Below are positions 1,211-63,317 of a DNA stretch of 64,000 bases, piece by piece. Origin of the DNA: Callorhinchus milii (Eukaryota); assembly GCF_018977255.1 (NCBI RefSeq), contig NW_024704742.1, positions 35,714,001 through 35,778,000 on the forward strand, read 5' to 3'. The notes under the pieces are model-generated. The model had not been told where the DNA came from. It was given only the letters and a program-made list of their open reading frames with translations, and did not search any database. The translations under genes and the position numbers were made by a program. Positions within the stretch are counted from its first letter, which is position 1; the number at the start of each line of letters is the position of its first letter.

Positions 1211-2635
1211 GAGTTAACCAGCATCCGGCTAAAGTGGATTCCACTGTAAATTTATTCTAGTTCTAGTTGAGTTGTAGACCTATCCTTATTACTGGAAAAC
1301 CTTTGTTCAGAAGCAACAGTAATCACGCACCTCCCATGAGCTGGTCGGTAAGATATGTTTTACTCACTTTAATTTCGCTTTTGTCACTGTGGCTTCATCT
1401 GAATGAGCACATGCGTTTGGTTGCCATCTGTATCCATGATATAATAATAATAATTCAGTGGTTGAGAATTTGGAATTTACTATACTGTTACAACAACAAC
1501 TTGGATTTATATAGCGCCCTCCACGCCGGACAGCGTCTCAGAGCGCTTAAGGATGCAATGATATCTTCTAACCAGTGGCTTTAAAGAATGCAACCATTGA
1601 AGTAAATTTTATATTCTGTGTAATAATCTGCGATGGAGCAACACGAATTTCAAGCCTGAACAAAAAGGTGTTATTTCATATGCTGTTATGCCACATTAAT
1701 CATGTTACTATGATAACATTTGCAGTTGAGTTTTCAAACTCATTTTTTGGAGCTTTTGTAATAGGGAGGAATATCTTTCCTATGGGATTTTATATTACTA
1801 AATATATATATTTTATAGGTAACAAAATGTACAAGTTCATGACCATTTAATAAGAAACAGTAAAGTCAGCACAGTGTCTTTTATTGGACCAGCAGAAATA
1901 ATCTTATGCGCACCATTAGCTGAAATCTTTTTGATGGCTATTTTTACAACTTAAATATCTACAGCAGCACTTGCTAGGCTTCCATTTATGTTATTTTCAC
2001 ATTCCTGATCTCTCCAGAACAGCTGAGTGTAAAACCCCAATATTGTCACAGAAAATGGCAATATTTGTGCCATTGCTTAAAAATAGATAAAATTTCGCCA
2101 ACCAATGCTACTAACCAGTTGCACATTTCTTGATGTGGTCAAACATCTGTTTTGAAGCAAAACACAACTCTAAACAAACCTTGACATAACTGAGATTAAT
2201 ATAAGAACTGCTGAGCACTTCCATTTAAGATTCCTTTCATATGATGGTTAACCACATGGAGTATATAAATGGAAGTCCATTTTCCGCATTGGTTACTGTG
2301 AGGTTTTAGTGTGTTTTGTTGATCATGTCCAAGCTGCAGTATGAAGGCCCTATACTCACTCTGGGGCCTTGCCAATGTGGGTAACAGCAAATATTGTAAT
2401 GTAAGCAAATTAACTTAATGATTTAAAACAATTTCTAAGCTTGAAAGGAAGGCAAACAAACAATCCTGACTGATATCTTGTGCCAAAAGAGTAATTGGCA
2501 GTAATTTCAACAAATTGTGGAGAGGCATTCACAAGCACATGAAAACTGCACAGAAAAAAGGTTGTAAATGCTGAGTCAGCCATTCTGCACACAGTACTGC
2601 TTGAGAATAACAAGCCATTTATTTATTGCTCATTT

Positions 2636-2860
2636 GGGGTCTGACACTTGTGGAAACCCATTGCCATGTTTAAAGTGTATCCAAATGAGACTGAGAATTT
2701 CACTCATGTATGCCATTTACGCCTGGTGATTTCCCTTTGTCTGGAATACAAAGCTTACTCTCTCTGAAAGGATGCAACCCGTTTACCTCATTTTGGAATG
2801 TATTGGGCACAGATTGGTGAGAACCAAGGCCTTGTGACCCTATAGTGTGCATTGCTTTAA
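2636..2860 (+). repeat. Copy A of the 5' region of the atypical LINE family
   Basis: Begins gtctgacacttgtggaaaccc; colinear with the reverse complements of 10440-10665 and 6590-6800. Confidence 0.75.
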
Positions 2861-3811
2861 AGGATAGATACTCATATATTGATATCACAGAATATGTTCA
2901 TTTGTCAATCAATATTCCCGATTAATGTGCTGGTGTTTTAATAACCTTTTATAGAATTCAAACTTTTTTTCTTGTCATCATGATCTCTTAGTGATGTAAC
3001 ATTTAATTATTGGATTTTTGCATTAATGTTACATGATTGTAACATTAATTTCCTATATTTTAACATAAGGTGAGGGGAATTCTCCCCTTGCTGATACATT
3101 TAGTTGCCTTCAACTGCTTGTCTATAAATACATATAAGTGCACACTACCAGAGGTTGGTTACTGACAAATATTACTGAGAAAAATGAATCTTGTCTCCAC
3201 TTTAGCTTCTCCTGGTTGGTGATAAGATGTAAACAATTTCTATTGATTCATTGGAGAAGAAAAACAAGGCTTTTTGTTGAATGCAAATTATAATTGAAGT
3301 TGTTCCTTCCTGCTCAGTTTACGTCAGATACCATATGCCAATGCTGCAATTGGTAATTTCAACATACAATGGAAAAGGAGTCAAGATTGCATGAAAACTG
3401 GAAGAAAAAGAAAGGTTAAGTCAACTTTGCCTTGCTATCCTCGGATCAAAGAGTGACATTAACTAAGGGTGTCTATGCCGAAAGCTTAGACTGCCTCACA
3501 GGATGGCATAGATATGGTAGCCTAACATTGTTGTCTAAGGAGAATTTTATGTGAATTAATTTGTACTAAAAAAGCATGAAGTTGCATTTAGGAATGCGTC
3601 TTGTATATTTTGAATGTCTAAATTTTAATCCAAACTATAGGTTGACATTATTTATAGATTTTTTTTAACACCAGTTTGAAATTTTTGATTTTGTGTTGTT
3701 GGGAGTTTAAACAGATAAAACTGTATAGATTGCCAGTGCGGATTCCAAATCAAGGTGATGTGTTTGGACTTTGTGACGGATACCGAGCTGACCAAAAATT
3801 AACTGCTTAGA

Positions 3812-4131
3812 TTCATAGAATCTTACAGCATAGAAGGAGGCCATTTAGCCCATCGTGCCTGTGCAGGCTCTTGGAAAGAGCTATCCAACTAGTCCCACTT
3901 CCTCCACTCTCACCCCATAGCACTGCAAGTTTTTCCTTTTCAAGCTCCAATTCCCTATTGAAAGCTACTGTTGAATCTGCTTCCACCATCCTTTCAGGCA
4001 GTACATTTCAGATCGTAACAACTCGATGAGTTTTTTTTAAAAAAAACTCTCATAGTCTTCTCTCTGGTTCTTTTGCCAATTATCTTAAATCTGTGTCCTC
4101 TGGTTACCAGAGGAAACCGTTTCTCTATCTA
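3812..4131 (-). mobile_element. CR1-clade LINE 3' end (chondrichthyan HER1-type tail)
   Basis: (t)catagaatc tail and gaaggaggccatttagcccatcgtgcc stem motif shared with copies at 38116, 52194 and 63085. Confidence 0.8.
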
Positions 4132-5575
4132 ACCTGAGCAGCTTTTAGGAACTCAGCATTAGTGCTGTCCACAACTACTGCCTTGCCATTAGCAAGGCGT
4201 CGCAGTGTAGAGTCCTCCTCCCAATGGATTGTGTTGTTAAGGCCTTCAGTCTGTTCCTTGCCTCCCGCCAGCTCTTCCAACCTCCATGGAGATGGATTTC
4301 TGCTACAACCTGTTGGGTCAGATGACAATTCCGCATAATATTCCCTCTAGAACCCAAGGATATCCTCAAGTTTTTTTTTATTGAACGCCAAATGTTTCCA
4401 AGCGTCCCTCTGGCCATGACTGACGACAGACTTTAGCCGCGGAAAAAAGATTTGGGATTGTTCTTGTGCAATTGCGCCCCCTTTTGGAGTGAAGCAACCC
4501 ATTCATCGCACTTTGGTTCTCTAATAACTTTTATGGCTTTGTGCCGTGCTTGGTCATTAGTTGTCTTTCCTGCAGTTTTAGCCTGCTCCGAGGAAGATTC
4601 CAAACTACTTTAAAGACCCACTGCTTTTGCCTAATAGCTCTCCTTCCCTTTGTGGTTACCCTGACAGGGTCCTGCTTCAGGGTTAAGTGCTTTGCAGGCT
4701 GTAGCTTCACTTTCCTTATAACCTCAGCTACAGAAGCAAGAAAGTTCTTGGCTGCGTCGTCAATCAGTCCTCGTATAGAATTGGTCCTAGGCTTCATGGT
4801 CAGCATTACCCCTTGAGTGACGGAGTACCTTGGCACAATCACCTTGTAGCACAAAACATGCCAACGGCTCCAAATTGACAGCCGCTCCATGTCACAGAGT
4901 CAGCACTCGGCCCTAAAAGTTCAAGGGATGCCCTCTTGACACAAACAGGTGACTGGCCAGTGGTCAGAGGTTTCTCAGTGACATCAAACAGCACGATTGG
5001 ACAGCATAGGATGTGCCAAACCACTCACCACCATGTGATCAATTGCTGTTCCATTCTGCACTCTGTGCCAACACCATGTAATTGGCGAACCTCGGAATGG
5101 TAGCAGAGAGCACCACTATTGAAGGATCTTGCTCCACCCTTGAAGTTCCGGTTTTGACATGTTCCAGTCTCCTATAAGGAGCAATGAATAGTCAGTAAAA
5201 TGTTGTGTGAGACCATCTAGCAAGGTTACACGCCTAAGGATACCCGGCGCTCTGCTCCGTGCAACTGCTGAGGAATGTAGACTGATCCTCAAACCAGGGA
5301 GTAGATCCTCTAAAGAGCATTTTCTCCCAGATGGGGTCAACTGAGCACACTCCGACTACCACTGGCAACGGGTCCTGGCGAGCCACGCCACGTGCACCAT
5401 TCTTCTTTGAGTCTATAGGCCCTTCAGCACACATTCTGGATTCACCAAGCTCTTGCCAACATGTACTTAATACTTTTTGTAAGCAGGGTGCATCCCTTCA
5501 GGAGAGCATGCACAATACATTCCAGGCATAGAAAATATGTATGTGGAACTCTTGGTCTCGTTTAGATACTCTTAA
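4131..5575 (-). mobile_element. Decayed non-LTR retrotransposon: 5' region, APE endonuclease and start of RT (not L2/CR1; RTE/RTEX-like)
   Basis: Minus-strand motifs in order across frameshifts: GARGVA, VYIP, LLIGDWN, TAIDHMVV, SDHWPV, then EYYAELSSDPTGCSRNPSPW and LNNTIHWEE..LRRLANGKAVVVDSTNAEFLK (KAPGxD equivalent). Confidence 0.85.
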
Positions 5576-5769
5576 TATTAATAATAATAATCCTTGAATT
5601 TATTATAGCTCAGCATTGTAAAGGGTTTCCGTATGTAACAGTGCAAATTGTTCTTTGAAAATACATAAAATTCCAACTTGGGATGAGTAATGCAACATTA
5701 AACTAATGATATTGGGAGCTACCTAAAATAATTAGATGACCAACTAGTGATTATGCTCCTTGCAGGAGA

Positions 5770-6800
5770 GTTTGTGGCATCGAAGCTGAGATGGCTGCAA
5801 GGTGACACGCCAAAGGAATGTCGATCCTCTGTGGCAATCTTGGTAGTCCGTTTTCTAAGCCAGTGAATATGCCACTGCTGATGACAGACCAGCTAGACGG
5901 GTTTGTAGGCAGGACTTGGAGGGGCAGGGATTCTTTACACTCTTGCTACTGTTAACGTGCAAACCAACAAAAACAACTTGCACTTACATGGTACCCTCCA
6001 TGAAGGGTAGTGTCTCAGAGTGCTTAACAGTGGTGGAGCCTGACTCGTAGCTGGAGGGCCCCGGGGGGGAGGTGACAATAAGCATGGTCGAAAAGGAAGG
6101 TTTTCAGGAGGGTCTTGAAAAAGGGAGGAGAGGGGGCATGGTGGTGGGATTGAGGGAGAGTGTTACAGAGCTTTGGGGCAGAGTGGCTGAAAGCGCGACC
6201 TCCAATGATGGAGCGGGAGATGCTAGGGACAAGCAGGAGGCCGCTGCCAGTCAAGCGGAGGTGCCAGGTGGTGGATAGGGAGTGAGGAGGTCGGAGAGGT
6301 TGTAGGGAGGTCCCAGGGAGTGAATGGATTTGAACGTGAGTGTGAGGATCTTGGAAGTCGATCCATTTGGTGATGGGGAGCCAGTGGTGCCTGGCCAGAA
6401 CTGGTGAGATGGGGGTACAGAGTTTGGTCCCGGTAAGTATGCAGGCAGCAGAGTTCTGAATGAGCTGGATTTTTTTTAAGCCAAAGTCGTAATGGTAGGG
6501 TAGTCTTAGCTAGACTATAGGAATCTTGCCAAATAGTATTCATTATGCCAAGCTGTGCCTTAGCTGGTTAAACATCAATAGTACCCCAAAACATATACTC
6601 TGAGGTCCCCAAGCCTTCTCACCAAATTGAGCCTAATGCTTTCCGGAATTGGGTAAGCAGGGTGCGTCCCTACTGGCAGGGAATGCACATTCCATTCTTG
6701 ACACATAGAAATTTCCATGTGTAAATGTTATGCATATGTGCATGTGTCTGGTTTGGTTACTCTTAAGTATGGTGATGAGTTTCTGCATGTGTCAGACACC
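5770..6800 (-). repeat. Copy C of the atypical LINE 5' region, split by an L2 insertion
   Basis: 5880-5945 matches 10233-10315 (ggcaggacttgga...ggggcagggattctt); 6590-6800 matches 10450-10665. Confidence 0.75.
5965..6470 (-). mobile_element. L2 3' fragment nested in copy C
   Basis: (caa)n tail and ORF2 C-terminus GGRAFSHSAPKLCNTLP...FKTLLKTFLF. Confidence 0.9.
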
Positions 6801-8154: not shown

Positions 8155-10120
8155 TTCAACAACAACAACACCATTACATTTGTATAACGCCTTTCACATC
8201 GGGGGACGTCAAGGCGCTAGGTTTCGAACCCGAGCTGGGGATCAAGGAGAGTGAAGGCCGGGGGGGGGGGGGGGGGGGGGGGATGGCGAGTGACCGAAAG
8301 CACGGTCGAAGAGGAGGTTTCTTGAGACAGGTTTTGAAGGAGGCAAGGGAGGGGGCGAGGCTGAGAGGACTGCGGGATGGAGTTCCAGAGGGTGGGGGCA
8401 GAGTGAGGTTTTGAAAGTGAAGACCAGGATGTTGAATGGTATCCTCTGTGATGGGAAGCCAGTGGAGTCGGGCGAGGATGGGGATGACAGGGTCGTGGAG
8501 CCTGGTGCGGGAGAGGACATGGGCTGCAGAGTTCTGGATGATCTTCAACCTATGGAGGGAGGAGTTGGGGAGGTGACAAGCAGGGCGTTTGGTAGTCGAG
8601 CCTGGATGTTATGAATGCGTGTATGTAGGTCTCGGCGGCCTGCAATGTAAGACAGTGGTGGAGTCGAACGATGTTGCGGAGGTGGGGAAAGGCGGAGCGG
8701 GTCATGGCACGGATGAGGGGTTGACAGTTGAGGGTCAAACAGGACCCCGAGGTTCCATATTGGCTCTGTAATGTAAAGTGCATCCATGGAGCGAGTTGCT
8801 GTCAGCGCTCAAGGTATGGAGGCGCTGATGGGATCCATCAGGAGAGCATCGGTCATGTTCACATTCAACTGGAAGATGTTAGCGCTCATCCAGGACTTGA
8901 TGTCCGACAGGCACGCCACCCTCGCCTCCGCCAAATTACCTATTTATTTCAAGATAATCTTGGAGGCCAAGGACAATCCCAGGCTCTTCTTCTCTGTGAG
9001 GACACCAGTGGTGCTGGAATCAAGGGTGGAGGTAGAGAGGTAAAGTTGGGTGTCATCCGCATATATGTGGAAGTTGACCCTATGTCTGCAGATGGTATTT
9101 ATCAAGGGGGAGCATATAATTATTGAAAAGGAGTGGGCCATGGACAGAGCTCTGAGGGACGCCACACGTGATGGTGTGGAGGCTGGAGGAGAAGCCCTTA
9201 GTGGCGACAAAGTGGGGAAGGTTGGAGAAGTAGGATTTGAACCAGGCAAGGGCAGGTCTGCAAAGATTGAGCTGAGCGGAAAGGTGGTGTAGGAGAATAG
9301 AGTGGTCGATAGTGACAAAGGCAGCAGAGAGGTCGAGGAGGACAAGGAGGCAGAGAGAGCCCTGGCCGCAGATGTTCAGAATGTTGTTAGGGCTATTTCC
9401 GTGCTGTGAGCAGCACAGAAACACAATTGGAGTGGTTCAGGGAGAGAATGGTGGGAAAGGAAAGAGCGAAGCTGGGATGCAACAACTTGTTCCAGGGCCT
9501 TGGAGAGGAATGGGAGATTGGAGCTGGGGCTGGAGAGTCGGAATGGGTCTGGGGAAAGTTTTTTGAGAATGGGGACGGATAAGGCGGTTAGTGGTGAGGA
9601 GGAGCCTGGGATTGTCCTTGGCCTCCAAGATTATCTTGAAATAAAAAGGTAATTTGGCGGAGACGAGGGCGGAGTGGTAAGTCTTAGTGTGGTCAGACCA
9701 GATCTGCCAATGGATGGTTAGGTTTGATTTGATTCAGGTACATTTGGCAGTGTACACTTGTGCCTTGAGGGATCGGTGATGGCTGGTGTACCAGGAGATT
9801 TCCGGTAATTTGAGGCAGTTTGGTAGGTGAGGGGGGCAAGGGAATCAAAGACAGAGGAGAGGGAGTTGTGGAGAAGAGGGATCGAGGAGGGTAGGTCATT
9901 GTGAGCAGAGGGGCAGGAGTTTGGATGACTCCAGGGCAACGGAGAGGAAGTGGGGGAATATTTTTTTCCAGGGCAGGAGGTGATAGAAATGGGTTGAGTA
10001 GGGGGAAGGCGTACAGAGGTGCTAAGGGAGATGAAGTAAGTGGTGGTCTGAGATGGCTTTATCAGTGATGGTGATGTCCGAGATGGTGAGGCCCCAGGTA
10101 AACAACAGGTCGAGGGTCGA
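8155..10120 (-). mobile_element. L2 LINE, ~2 kb, decayed and internally rearranged
   Basis: LVLLDLSAAF, GVPQSSVHGPLLF, YADDTQLY, IQNSAAHVL and LHWLP motifs; (caa)n tail; G23 run at 8260-8282. Confidence 0.93.
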
Positions 10121-10219: not shown

Positions 10220-10665
10220 AAAGGACAATGTTGATGACTGCACAGCCAGACAGGCTCATCGGCAGGACTTGGAAGGGCAGACCAGTCACTGGGGGCAGGG
10301 ATTCTTCCCACTCAGTTCCCGCTATCCCTGCAAGCCAAAGCCCAAACGGGCAGTGTGGTCCTTGCTGGACAAGCAGTGAGAAAGCTGGTCAGGGGTGGCT
10401 CTCAATGGCAAACTATGAGGTTTTAGCTAGTTAGAGTCCAGCAGTACCACAACGCACACTCTGGGATACCAAGCCCCCTCTTGCCAATCTGCACCTAATA
10501 CTTTCCCGAATTAGGTAAGCAGGATGTGCCCCTATATATAGGGAGAGAGTGCGCATTCCAGTAAACATCTATGGAATTTCCATGTATTGATGGGATGCAT
10601 GGAACTCTCAGTTTGGTTTGGATCCTCTTAAGGATAGTGCTGGGTTTCCACTTGTGTCAGACAAA
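10220..10665 (-). repeat. Copy D of the atypical LINE 5' region
   Basis: Ends gggtttccacttgtgtcagac, the terminus shared with copies A and C; aligns with 5425-5575. Confidence 0.78.
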
Positions 10666-36545: not shown

Positions 36546-38115
36546 AGTAAAAGAAAACCGCCTAATATCTGTCTTGAAATTGCCCTTTCCTGTCTCCAGT
36601 AGATGAGCCACCAGTGGATGAGCTAAATGATCTCTTCCTAGGTTGTTGTTTCTGCAATTCTATGCTGTACTCCAAGCTCAGAAGAAAATTAATGGCACCG
36701 GTAGGAATTGTTCTATTTGTCCACACAGGTGCCTGAATGTGATTGCTAATTTGTTCTTACTGTTTAGGCTGTTATGAGTTCATGATTACTAGGAATTGAG
36801 ATAAACACAGAACAAGGAAAAATTTCAACATTCATCAAACTTTGCTTCTAAGGATCATATATTATTTGAGGTTCACCAGTCGTGATAGTTACTAATATCA
36901 GGGTGATTTTCAGTCAGTCAATTTGTGTTGCATTTAAACCTACGAAAAAATCGCATATTAACCTGCTATGTTACTCAGGACTCACCTATGATATAGTTGA
37001 AATAATATAACAATTAGCAGCACCCACCAGTTCATAATATAGATTAGTAGTCCATATGTATTGAAATATACAAATACTTCTAGAAAGGTCTTATGCAGCA
37101 AAACATTAATATTTATTAATTTGGCTGATAGTTATCGACAGCTTTAGTTTCATTCAACACTTCAGTTAGATTGCTTGTTGCTCCATTTTATTTTTACTCC
37201 CTTTGTCCTTTTCTCTCTTTTTCCATTCCTTTCATTGACATTAAATATAGTTGATTGAAGATGCCGAACAAATGGAAAGCTATTCCATTATTGCCTGCTA
37301 ATTGGTGCCAGATGGCCACAGTGATTGACATCCAAAAAAATTAGAACAGAGATTAATGAACACTGAGATCACAAAATGCAGGCTGTAGTCTGTTCAAAAT
37401 CAATAAAAATATTTCTTGTTTGTAAAATAAATTAATCTTAAGGGTAAAATTAAAACCATTACTGACCAGTTTCCAGGATAAAACTGGCATAACTTTGCTT
37501 CTCAAGTTACAAACGTGATCTCGAGTGTACAGTAATGCTTTCGGTCATTGGGTTTGGACATTATGACACACTTGTGTGGTAACTTCGAAAGCCCTCGAGT
37601 CAATATTTTACCAGTTCAGCCGTCAATGTCTGTAAATATTTATGTTATATACTGCTATGTATGTCAGATATTAAACTGAGGTCAAATTATGAGTAAAATA
37701 TTAAGCGTACTTCTGCAGTATATAATTTCTAGTTATTTCTAAATCTAAACCAAGGATGATCTCCTTAAATTTTCTTAGACTCATAGGAACAATATCTTAT
37801 AGTGAGCCCTTCCCTTTTAAAGCTAGCTATAATGTATTCATATCAAATAGAACTCTTATCTTTGTAGAAATACTGCAGTAAAGAAATTTAATTCCCCATT
37901 ATATAGAAAATATTATTTGAATCTACAATTTTCAAAATGTGCTAATATGAACAGTGGATTGTACTGATTTAAAAATAGCAGTGTTGCATATCAATCCATC
38001 AGTTGGGAAAATAGTCCACTGTGTACTCTCGTAAAATTTTAGATATCTTAATAAGTATCTGGCTGCAGAATATTGCTGGAAACTACTTTGGCTCCCACAA
38101 ACAACCATGAAATTA

Positions 38116-38520
38116 ATCATAGAATCATAGAAAAGTACAGCACAGAAGGAGGCCATTTGGCTCATTGCGTCTGCCCCGGCAATCAGCACAGGGTGTTTGT
38201 TCAATCCAACAGCCCTGTCTTTATCCTTCATGTACCTGTCTATTTCTCTCTTGAAACCCTCTGCCATCTTACATGGCAGGGCATTCCATAAACCAACAAC
38301 TCTGAGTGAAAACATTTCACCGAAGCTCTCCTTTTGCTCTTCTTCTAAATGTATAACAATGGTCGCTATTCACTGACTTCAAATGGTGTTAAAAGATCTT
38401 TAACGATTGCCTGAACAGGCAGTTGGGGCCTCGGGTTAATCAGACAGCATCCCCGACAATATAGCACTCCTCCAGCACTGACATCCTTGATTATGAGCTT
38501 AAAGTCCTTATGTGGGTTTT
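38116..38520 (-). mobile_element. CR1 3' end followed by a SacSINE1-like fragment
   Basis: (atcataga)2 tail; FSLRVVGLWNALP; ggggcctcgggttaa. Confidence 0.78.
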
Positions 38521-42044: not shown

Positions 42045-42735
42045 TATGAGGTACACCCCAAAAGTAATGCCTCCTATTTATTTTATTAAGAATGGTAAGT
42101 GGTACAGTGATGAAAAATATATACAAGATACTTGTATCTATCCCGCCCCTGCTGTGAAAGTTTTGTTCACTTCTAACTAGATGGAGGCACATGACAGCAG
42201 TTCAAAATGGTACAAAGCATTGATACGGGTGTTAAGCAGAGAGCGGTTCTCACAGCTGGGGGGCCTTCACCGATTGAGAGTCAACATCTCATGATTAAAG
42301 TGTAGGGACAGTTATGTGTTGATTTGAGTACACTGGGAAAAGTGGAGAGACTGAACTTCAAGATAGGTCTTGCAGGGGTGGTTGTCAACAACTGTTAATG
42401 AAGAAGAAGCTAAAAGCCCATATAAGGAGAACCTGTCCAAACACTAACATGATAGAAGTGCTTTTGCCAATGCCAGATCCCACACAGGCCTCCGAATATC
42501 AGAAGCCATTGGACGAATCAGATGGACTGTGCTTCCTCACCCTCCATATGGCCCAGATTTGGCGTCCTCAGACTTTCATTCTCTTTGGTCCTCTGAAGCA
42601 AGGCTTACATAGACAACATTTTGAAAATGATGATGCCCTAAAGAATGCTGTTCGTCAATGGCTCCGTAACAAAGATGCATCATTTGACCAGCATTCTGGC
42701 ACTGCTTCCACATTGGCGCACCTGTGTACATTGTG
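42045..42735 (+). mobile_element. Internally deleted Tc1/mariner (mariner-type) DNA transposon
   Basis: TA + tgaggtacaccccaaaagtaatgcctcctatttatt left TIR; N-terminal KQRAV..LTAGGPSPIE..VDLST; C-terminal WTVLPHPPYGPDLASSDFH and LFGPLKQGLHRQHFENDDALKNAVRQWLR. Right TIR not clear. Confidence 0.9.
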
Positions 42736-52193: not shown

Positions 52194-52345
52194 ATCATAG
52201 AATCATAGAATTAGACAGCACAGAAGGAGGCCTTTCGGCCCATTGTGTCCGTGCCGGCTCTTTGAAAAGAACTATCCAATTCAATCCCACTCCCCCGCGC
52301 TCTCCCCATAGCCCCGCAAACTTGTCCTCCCTAAATAACCATCTA
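52194..52345 (-). mobile_element. CR1 3' end
   Basis: (atcataga)2 tail; highly similar to the reverse complement of 63175-63317. Confidence 0.85.
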
Positions 52346-63084: not shown

Positions 63085-63317
63085 TTTTTTCACACAGCTA
63101 GTTGTTCAGATCTGGAATGCACTGCCTGAAAGGGTGGTTACAGCCGATTCGATAACAACTTTTAAGAAAGAAGTAGATAATTATTTGGGGAGGACAAGTT
63201 TGCAGGGCTATGGGGAGAGAGCGGGGGAGTGGGATTGAATTGGATAGCTCTTTTCAAAGAGCCGGTACAGACACGATGGGCCGAATGGCCTCCTTCTGTG
63301 ATGTATAATTCTATGAT
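63085..63317 (+). mobile_element. CR1 3' end
   Basis: FFTQLVVQIWNALPERVV; gatgggccgaatggcctccttctgtg; ttctatgat tail. Confidence 0.88.

What the first reader, a model, noticed from the sequence alone, without database searches (positions are those of the whole stretch)
4131..5434. Atypical APE-RT retrotransposon unlike the local L2/CR1 elements
Seen: all APE endonuclease motifs in order (GARGVA, VYIP, GDWN, TAIDH, SDHWPV) and a linker EYYAELSSDPTGCSRNPSPW...LNNTIHWEE...LANGKA..D...AEFLK. The D-x-T-G-x-S-R-N...W linker is not a CR1/L2/L1 feature I recognise. From memory, not a search, it resembles RTE/RTEX-like ORF2 proteins of gut fungi and microsporidia. Inference: a poorly described LINE lineage in cartilaginous fish, possibly horizontally acquired.
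Basis: partly seen in the sequence, partly recalled or inferred. Interest (0 to 1): 0.7.

Follow-up and report, generated by a model that had tools for sequence, protein, structure and literature searches.

The report
Dead LINE from a little-described lineage
This is a broken 1.3-kb piece of an old, multi-copy jumping gene whose named relatives come from brown algae, gut fungi, a clubmoss and a nematode assembly rather than from vertebrates, but whether it entered this genome by horizontal transfer is not shown.

Summary
The motifs are real. Window 5431→4136 (minus strand) is a decayed non-LTR retrotransposon fragment: about two-thirds of an APE endonuclease plus the linker. It has 4 frameshifts and 6 stops and ends just before the RT core, against a CR1-like tail. 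The same species holds other, old copies (20–28 contigs per run differ at one site; listed pieces are 15–20% diverged), and their majority letters fit the coding profile better. The fragment is not L2/CR1. It belongs to a well-supported clade (RT tree 99/98) of mostly single-ORF elements: RRM-like lead, APE, D-x-T-G-H-S linker, RT, CCHC. Named hosts are Orpinomyces, Neocallimastix, Ectocarpus, Laminaria, Diphasiastrum and an Acanthocheilonema contig; no vertebrate is named, but most hits are unnamed. Gut fungi are in the clade but not the nearest (20% identity); no microsporidian was seen. The best match is 42% over 151 residues, from an unnamed metagenome contig. Horizontal transfer is neither shown nor excluded, and the host being a cartilaginous fish was not verified. 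Repbase and Dfam could not be searched; the clade may already be filed as RTE-X. The scan's earlier notes hold nothing like it.

The parts
4136..5431 (-). Decayed LINE ORF fragment, about 434 codons; frameshifts near 5290, 5243, 4602, 4438; stops at 5118, 4986, 4977, 4923, 4902, 4349
   Evidence: 400 half-bits vs 31-33 shuffled; 302 vs 29-33 with an RT-selected profile. The first 20-25 bases (5431-5406) overlap repeat Y, so the 5' edge lies at about 5410-5430.
4950..5431 (-). C-terminal two-thirds of the APE endonuclease (GARGVA, VYIP, GDWN, TAIDH, SDHWP)
4136..4949 (-). Endonuclease-to-RT linker up to the start of the RT N-terminal region (W-x-E ... GKA ... AEFLK)
4296..4319 (-). Clade-marking linker motif D-P-T-G-C-S-R-N (relatives: D-x-T-G-H-S-R-D)
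3808..4135 (-). Tail of a very high-copy repeat, CR1-like by recalled C-terminal motifs (RGH..FKI, RVV..WN.LPE), same strand, abutting the fragment's 3' cut; not part of the element
   Evidence: 76-79% to copies at 63092-63316, 52198-52328, 38110-38180; summed depth above 10,000 over 4040-4141 in the three deep runs
5406..5575 (.). Old non-coding repeat 'Y' abutting the fragment's 5' cut; not part of the element as far as tested
   Evidence: 62-66% to 6575-6729 and 10431-10631; no protein match

Best explanation
The stretch is a dead, internal fragment of one copy of an old, dispersed LINE family. The family belongs to a distinct clade of APE-type non-LTR retrotransposons, most with one ORF of about 1250-1470 residues: an RRM/ferredoxin-fold lead domain, APE endonuclease, linker with D-x-T-G-H-S-R, RT and a C-terminal CCHC finger. 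Shown: the homology, the decay, other copies in the same species, the clade and the relatives' architecture. Inferred from established LINE biology: the active ancestor moved by target-primed reverse transcription (APE nicks, RT copies the RNA from its 3' end), with the fused RRM-like domain standing in for the RNA-binding role of a separate ORF1. Because such insertions keep the 3' end, this copy was probably long at insertion and later lost its RT and tail by deletion at or after the arrival of the CR1-like tail, and lost its front end at repeat Y. It does nothing now. How the lineage entered this host is open.
For: phmmer gave 20 hits at E<=0.001, all with endonuclease Pfam matches and 10 with RT as well. 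The joined reading matches P0003 at 28% over 417 residues, E 8e-34. Profile scores: clade 302, L008 group 55, L007/L009 group 40, CR1/L2 group 41, shuffles 29-38. RT trees: 144 clade rows against 70 other LINEs, SH 99; 24 against 29, 99/98. Other copies: at 4710 another letter is carried by 24, 20 and 28 contigs in three runs, and listed foreign pieces differ at 15-20% of letters. Of 37 majority differences, 23 improve the profile score, 9 do not and 5 are silent; the sum is +79 against a null of -64 +/- 23 (0 of 2000 as high), and 2 of the 6 stops read as sense codons in other copies. The lead domain of a relative folds with pLDDT about 90 or more and matches GUCT/RRM domains at Z 8-10. CCHC is present in 102 of 105 long relatives.
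Against: The window copy has no RT, so its place in the clade rests on endonuclease and linker alone (433 columns, 21% median identity). The lead domain, RT and CCHC are seen only in relatives. Two loci of the clade (L005, L006) have a separate upstream ORF, so 'single ORF' is not universal. The lead fold also matches ACT and other ferredoxin-like domains at similar Z. No target-site duplication can be defined. Contig counts are not copy numbers.
Confidence: 0.88

Rival explanations
1. Origin by old horizontal transfer: the family entered this vertebrate lineage from a protist, fungus, alga or invertebrate, spread, and died.
For: None of the named hosts is a vertebrate: Orpinomyces, Ectocarpus (2), Laminaria, Neocallimastix, Diphasiastrum, Acanthocheilonema. 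That scatter across eukaryotes suggests a mobile lineage (inference). Only one organism's runs hold the DNA (8 of 24 rows), though that search finds near-identical DNA only.
Against: No close donor: 42% over 151 residues (P0009, an unnamed 1.36-kb ENA contig that itself looks decayed) and under 30% for the rest. Only 4 of the 120 listed hits name an organism, and 808 of 928 were not listed. Decayed vertebrate copies would be missing from protein collections. Frith 2022 (PMC9004415, passages) shows that patchy LINE types in vertebrates often prove ancient and vertical.
Confidence: 0.4
2. Vertical inheritance: an ancient eukaryotic clade that persisted in early vertebrates, was active in this lineage long ago, and was lost or overlooked elsewhere.
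For: The window copy sits on a long branch with no starred tie to any named host. The copies are old (15-20% apart, cut off by the 80% filter). An RTE-X fossil of gnathostome age is reported in human (PMC9004415, table passage).
Against: No named animal member except one 4-kb nematode contig, whose tie to the window copy (SH 87) vanished in the careful tree. Of 80 metagenome loci, the many animal-type LINEs fall outside the clade (types assigned from recall).
Confidence: 0.45
3. It is already catalogued, filed under RTE-X (or another Repbase/Dfam label) by best hit.
For: Curated Ectocarpus RTEX-1/RTEX-2_Ec32 are single EN-RT ORF elements of 5.5-5.9 kb whose best blastp hits are RTEX-4_NV and RTEX-1_BF (PMC12477816 supplement 1). 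The clade holds Ectocarpus proteins, one on a 5.7-kb contig. RTEX traces are known in vertebrates (human L4, L5; PMC5753468, passages).
Against: The loci I take for canonical RTEX (by recall) form their own starred branch (97/92) apart from this clade, and their profile scores only 55 on the window. The Ectocarpus sequences could not be read, so the identity with RTEX-1/2_Ec32 is a guess.
Confidence: 0.4
4. For the 3' junction only: the fragment is a template-switch chimera, in which a CR1 RT copied its own tail and then switched onto this LINE's RNA.
For: The CR1-like tail lies directly 3' on the same strand, and nothing of the LINE continues beyond it. The two parts are about equally diverged from their families. 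An earlier, unchecked note reports a 7SK-CR1 chimera in this genome.
Against: The CR1-like tail is itself deleted near the junction (loose ends at 4106-4109), so later deletions are evident here. No flanking duplication can be seen.
Confidence: 0.2

Closest known systems
Ectocarpus RTEX-1_Ec32 / RTEX-2_Ec32 (curated as LINE/RTE-X; PMC12477816)
   Same: Single EN-RT ORF, about 5.5-5.9 kb, brown algal host; the clade found here holds Ectocarpus and Laminaria proteins.
   Different: Identity with the clade is inferred, since their sequences were not readable. The Ectocarpus proteins are only 19-21% identical to the window copy. Their (C)n tail cannot be checked here.
Metazoan RTEX clade (RTEX-4_NV, RTEX-1_BF; human relics L4, L5)
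   Same: APE plus RT; probably the nearest named clade; has vertebrate relics.
   Different: RTEX has a full ORF1, some with an esterase (PMC3905857, passages); this clade mostly fuses a short RRM-like domain to the APE. RTEX-like loci (assigned from recall) branch apart and lack the linker motif.
RTE clade (BovB type)
   Same: One long ORF with APE and RT and no real ORF1; known for horizontal transfer.
   Different: RTE-like loci (L007 with a weak DUF6451 match, L009 group) lie outside the clade, and their profile scores 40 on the window. The relatives carry a C-terminal CCHC finger, which RTE lacks (recalled).
Human LINE-1 ORF2p
   Same: Best solved relative of the clade's profile (E 6e-72) and of its endonuclease fold (Z 23); APE-RT-CCHC order.
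   Different: L1 has a separate ORF1. It was not among the tree's named rows; loci I take for L1-like (recall) fall outside the clade.

Membership tests
APE-type non-LTR retrotransposon | APE endonuclease with GD(F/W)N, D and SDH motifs | tested here: met
   N-terminal third missing
APE-type non-LTR retrotransposon | Non-LTR RT downstream in the same ORF | tested here: inconclusive
   absent from the window copy; present in the relatives
APE-type non-LTR retrotransposon | Dispersed multiple copies in the host | tested here: met
   20-28 contigs with another letter at 4710; pieces 15-20% diverged
APE-type non-LTR retrotransposon | 3' tail and target-site duplication | tested here: inconclusive
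   both ends are cut by other repeats
Clade defined here (RRM-APE-linker-RT-CCHC) | Endonuclease-linker homology far above other LINE groups, with the D-x-T-G-x-S-R motif | tested here: met
   (302 vs 40-55)
CR1/L2 group | Endonuclease/linker homology and RT grouping with CR1/L2 | tested here: not met
   41 vs shuffles 37-38; no match to the window's other repeats. The CR1/L2 label of the comparison loci is recalled.
RTE clade | RT groups with RTE references | tested here: inconclusive
   relatives do not group with RTE-like loci, but no named reference was in the tree
RTE clade | Single ORF, no real ORF1 | tested here: met
   most relatives; L005 and L006 have an upstream ORF; not testable on the window copy
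RTEX clade | RT groups with Repbase RTEX references (the clade's definition) | not testable with these tools
   no Repbase/Dfam; stand-in loci (assigned from recall) form a separate branch, sister relation unresolved
RTEX clade | Separate ORF1, in some members with an SGNH esterase | tested here: inconclusive
   most relatives have a fused RRM-like lead instead; upstream ORFs of L005 and L006 have no Pfam match; curated Ectocarpus RTE-X are also single-ORF
L1/Tx1 group | RT groups with L1; separate ORF1 | tested here: inconclusive
   best PDB relative, but no named L1 in the tree; the single-ORF layout differs
Horizontally transferred element | Patchy host range plus higher identity to a distant host than vertical descent allows | not testable with these tools
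   no vertebrate genomes searchable; best identities 28-42%

The most novel reading that the evidence does not exclude
An unnamed, eukaryote-wide LINE clade with an RRM-like domain fused in front of the endonuclease and a conserved 3' hairpin. It is common in algae, gut fungi and protists, is distinct from both RTE and RTEX, and once invaded a vertebrate (probably chondrichthyan) germ line by horizontal transfer from a non-animal or parasitic host, leaving tens or more fossil copies.
Probability: 0.2. Interest if true: 0.7.

Novelty: new member of a known kind. Interest (0 to 1): 0.45.

Why it matters
If the clade is unnamed, it adds a widespread LINE lineage with its own architecture (the ORF1-like RNA-binding fold built into the enzyme protein) to the roughly 30 recognised clades, and it would explain some elements now filed as RTE-X by best hit. 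If a vertebrate got it from a non-animal host, it would be a rare cross-kingdom transposon transfer into a vertebrate. The locus itself is non-functional debris; its value is as a pointer to a family that can be tested genome-wide.

Tried and rejected
No whole genome is held, so no genome-wide copy count, family RT or flanking analysis was possible. Pfam on six single ORFs gave only chance matches. A word-indexed search with one read-through frame found nothing among 1747 candidates. Viral contigs: 70 pattern matches, none confirmed. Rfam on 8 clade loci: 0 matches, so no sign of rRNA, tRNA or snRNA targets there. The protein atlas gave APE-RT clusters with no taxa for two relatives. No RNA holder listed; this says nothing on expression. 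The Acanthocheilonema protein as sister (SH 87) did not hold in the careful tree and was dropped. The WN-like motif at 5533-5518 was rejected as chance: it lies in repeat Y, which has no protein match. A 3' continuation beyond the CR1-like tail was not found. The clade's 3' motif is not in the window. Ten paper searches (terms such as RTEX, RTE-X, Proto2, RTETP, Deceiver, Inkcap, shark, chondrichthyan, Neocallimastigomycota, microsporidia, Ectocarpus, horizontal transfer) listed no paper that describes this clade or a shark member by title or abstract start; the library is partial. Earlier scan notes by place, sequence and words gave nothing on this family.

Full report
What is there. A frameshift-aware alignment to a profile of 27 relatives covers profile positions 143-575 of 1262 without rearrangement. 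It scores 400 half-bits against 31-33 for 4 shuffles and needs 4 frameshifts (near 5290, 5243, 4602, 4438) and 6 stops. The fragment lacks the first third of the endonuclease and stops just before the RT core; neither part lies within the flanks tested, 5430-6000 and 1250-3810. At its 3' cut lies a same-strand tail of a very high-copy repeat, 3808-4135, CR1-like by recalled motifs. At its 5' cut lies an old non-coding repeat with three more copies in the first 11 kb. The fragment has no second copy in the window. The rest of the window is rich in L2-like fossils (label recalled).

It is a family, and an old one. Public runs of one organism hold the DNA (8 of 24 rows, 2 studies). Laid at 80% likeness, three deep runs show the locus's own contigs at depth 5-10 and many foreign pieces along it. 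At 4710 another letter is carried by 24, 20 and 28 contigs, and the listed foreign pieces differ at 15-20% of letters, a figure capped by the filter. The fourth run covered only 7 of 30 bins. Contig counts and depth are not copy numbers; 'about twenty or more other copies' is my inference. Of the 40 differences shown (185 more were not shown) I dropped 3 that are the locus's own alleles. Of the other 37, 23 raise the profile score, 9 do not and 5 are silent; the sum is +79 against -64 +/- 23 for random changes (0 of 2000 as high), and 2 of 6 stops read as sense codons in the other copies. So this copy decayed on its own from a coding ancestor. One run pair shows an 11-base deletion allele at 5238, which fits a lack of constraint.

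Its relatives. phmmer over 1.84 billion representatives gave 20 hits at E<=0.001, best 9.5e-11. All 20 match endonuclease families and 10 also RT. An RT-centred profile gave 928 proteins at E<=1e-60 among 8000 candidates, of which 120 were listed. A metagenome scan gave 80 loci; 8 of them I treat as clade members. The long relatives share one layout: a lead domain, APE, the linker motif (70 of 105), RT and CCHC (102 of 105) (near-duplicates included). The linker motif was absent from 30 of 30 other LINE loci with a readable linker. The lead domain of P0012, folded with 56 rows that I chose, is a confident beta-alpha-beta-beta-alpha-beta unit. It matches GUCT and RRM domains at Z 8-10, rmsd about 2.5 over 70-77 residues for the RRMs, but ACT-type domains score nearly as well. 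Four clade loci share a 3' motif with a small hairpin. In RT trees the clade is one side of a strong branch: 144 rows against 70, SH 99; 24 against 29 chosen rows, 99/98. Its sister group is unresolved. The other groups carry no names in my data; I call them RTEX-like, RTE-like and CR1/L2-like from recalled motifs and tails. Against profiles of those groups the window scores 55, 40 and 41, against 302 for 28 clade members found through the RT search, with shuffles at 29-38.

Hosts. Named members are Orpinomyces, two Ectocarpus strains and Laminaria (4 of 120 rows), Neocallimastix lanati, and Diphasiastrum complanatum and Acanthocheilonema viteae (2 of 10 clusters). None of the 10 clusters names an organism. 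No vertebrate and no microsporidian is named. The window copy is closest to P0009, an unnamed 1.36-kb ENA contig that itself looks decayed: 42% over 151 columns, 96/96 in a tree of 41 of 122 rows. Beyond that its place is unresolved; Orpinomyces is at 20% and Ectocarpus at 19-21%. The host is a vertebrate by other, unchecked notes of the scan; a cartilaginous fish fits my recollection of such CR1 tails but was not verified.

How it worked. By established LINE biology the ancestor moved by target-primed reverse transcription, the fused RRM-like domain plausibly supplying the RNA binding that ORF1 gives in L1 or RTEX (inference). Such insertions keep the 3' end, so a copy with only endonuclease and linker was probably long at first and was cut later; a template switch from CR1 is the lesser rival.

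Comparison with print. Repbase's clade list was read in PMC5753468 (passages). Curated Ectocarpus RTEX-1/2_Ec32 are single EN-RT ORF elements with best hits to RTEX-4_NV and RTEX-1_BF (PMC12477816, passages and rows of supplement 1). Its FASTA supplements could not be read and would settle whether they are this clade. RTEX has a real ORF1, some with esterase, and RTE does not (PMC3905857, passages). Frith 2022 reports an RTE-X fossil of gnathostome age and argues that patchy LINE types in vertebrates are often vertical (PMC9004415, passages). PMC13343379 (passages) cautions against classing by RT identity below 60% and notes unannotated LINEs in elasmobranchs. PMC4421812, PMC4350176 and PMC11203168 (passages) added only background. 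Ten searches found no description of this clade, but the library is partial and Repbase/Dfam were out of reach.

Verdict. A real, dead fragment of an old multi-copy family from a distinct and little-described LINE clade. The assignment is firm (0.88); the clade's name and the route into this host are open (vertical 0.45, horizontal 0.4). Interest 0.45.

Noticed in passing
window 2636-2854 (inverted), 5406-5575 with 5873-5967, 6480-6800, 10226-10663: An old non-coding repeat ('Y') with four copies 62-66% alike, all within the first 11 kb and with only short weak matches elsewhere in the 64 kb; no protein match; unclassified.
   Followed up: partly
L001:5337, L004:6611, L006:6806, L010:1612: A 3' UTR motif TTTAGTG...CAC(A)CT(A/G), mostly with a small hairpin, behind the ORF in four clade loci; among the other loci only three opposite-strand matches, none in the window. 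Possibly the RT recognition site.
   Followed up: partly
P0012 residues 43-120 and relatives: A conserved RRM/ferredoxin-fold domain fused in front of the endonuclease, with no Pfam match.
   Followed up: partly
P0164, P0178, P0179 (MBR5954469.1, MBR5953920.1, MBR5953921.1): LINE proteins of the gut-fungal branch are deposited as Methanobrevibacter sp. MAG genes on 5-kb contigs; probably binning contamination.
   Followed up: no
L001 and L004: Both contigs repeat parts of their ends or carry a second, related ORF tail behind the first, as in tandem or nested insertions.
   Followed up: no
window 8912-8992 and 9596-9676: An 81-base inverted repeat, 93% complementary, inside an L2-like fossil, bracketing 603 bases; may mark an internal inversion.
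   Followed up: no
window 42323-42733 (+): A short ORF resembling the C-terminus of a mariner-type transposase (motifs recalled).
   Followed up: no
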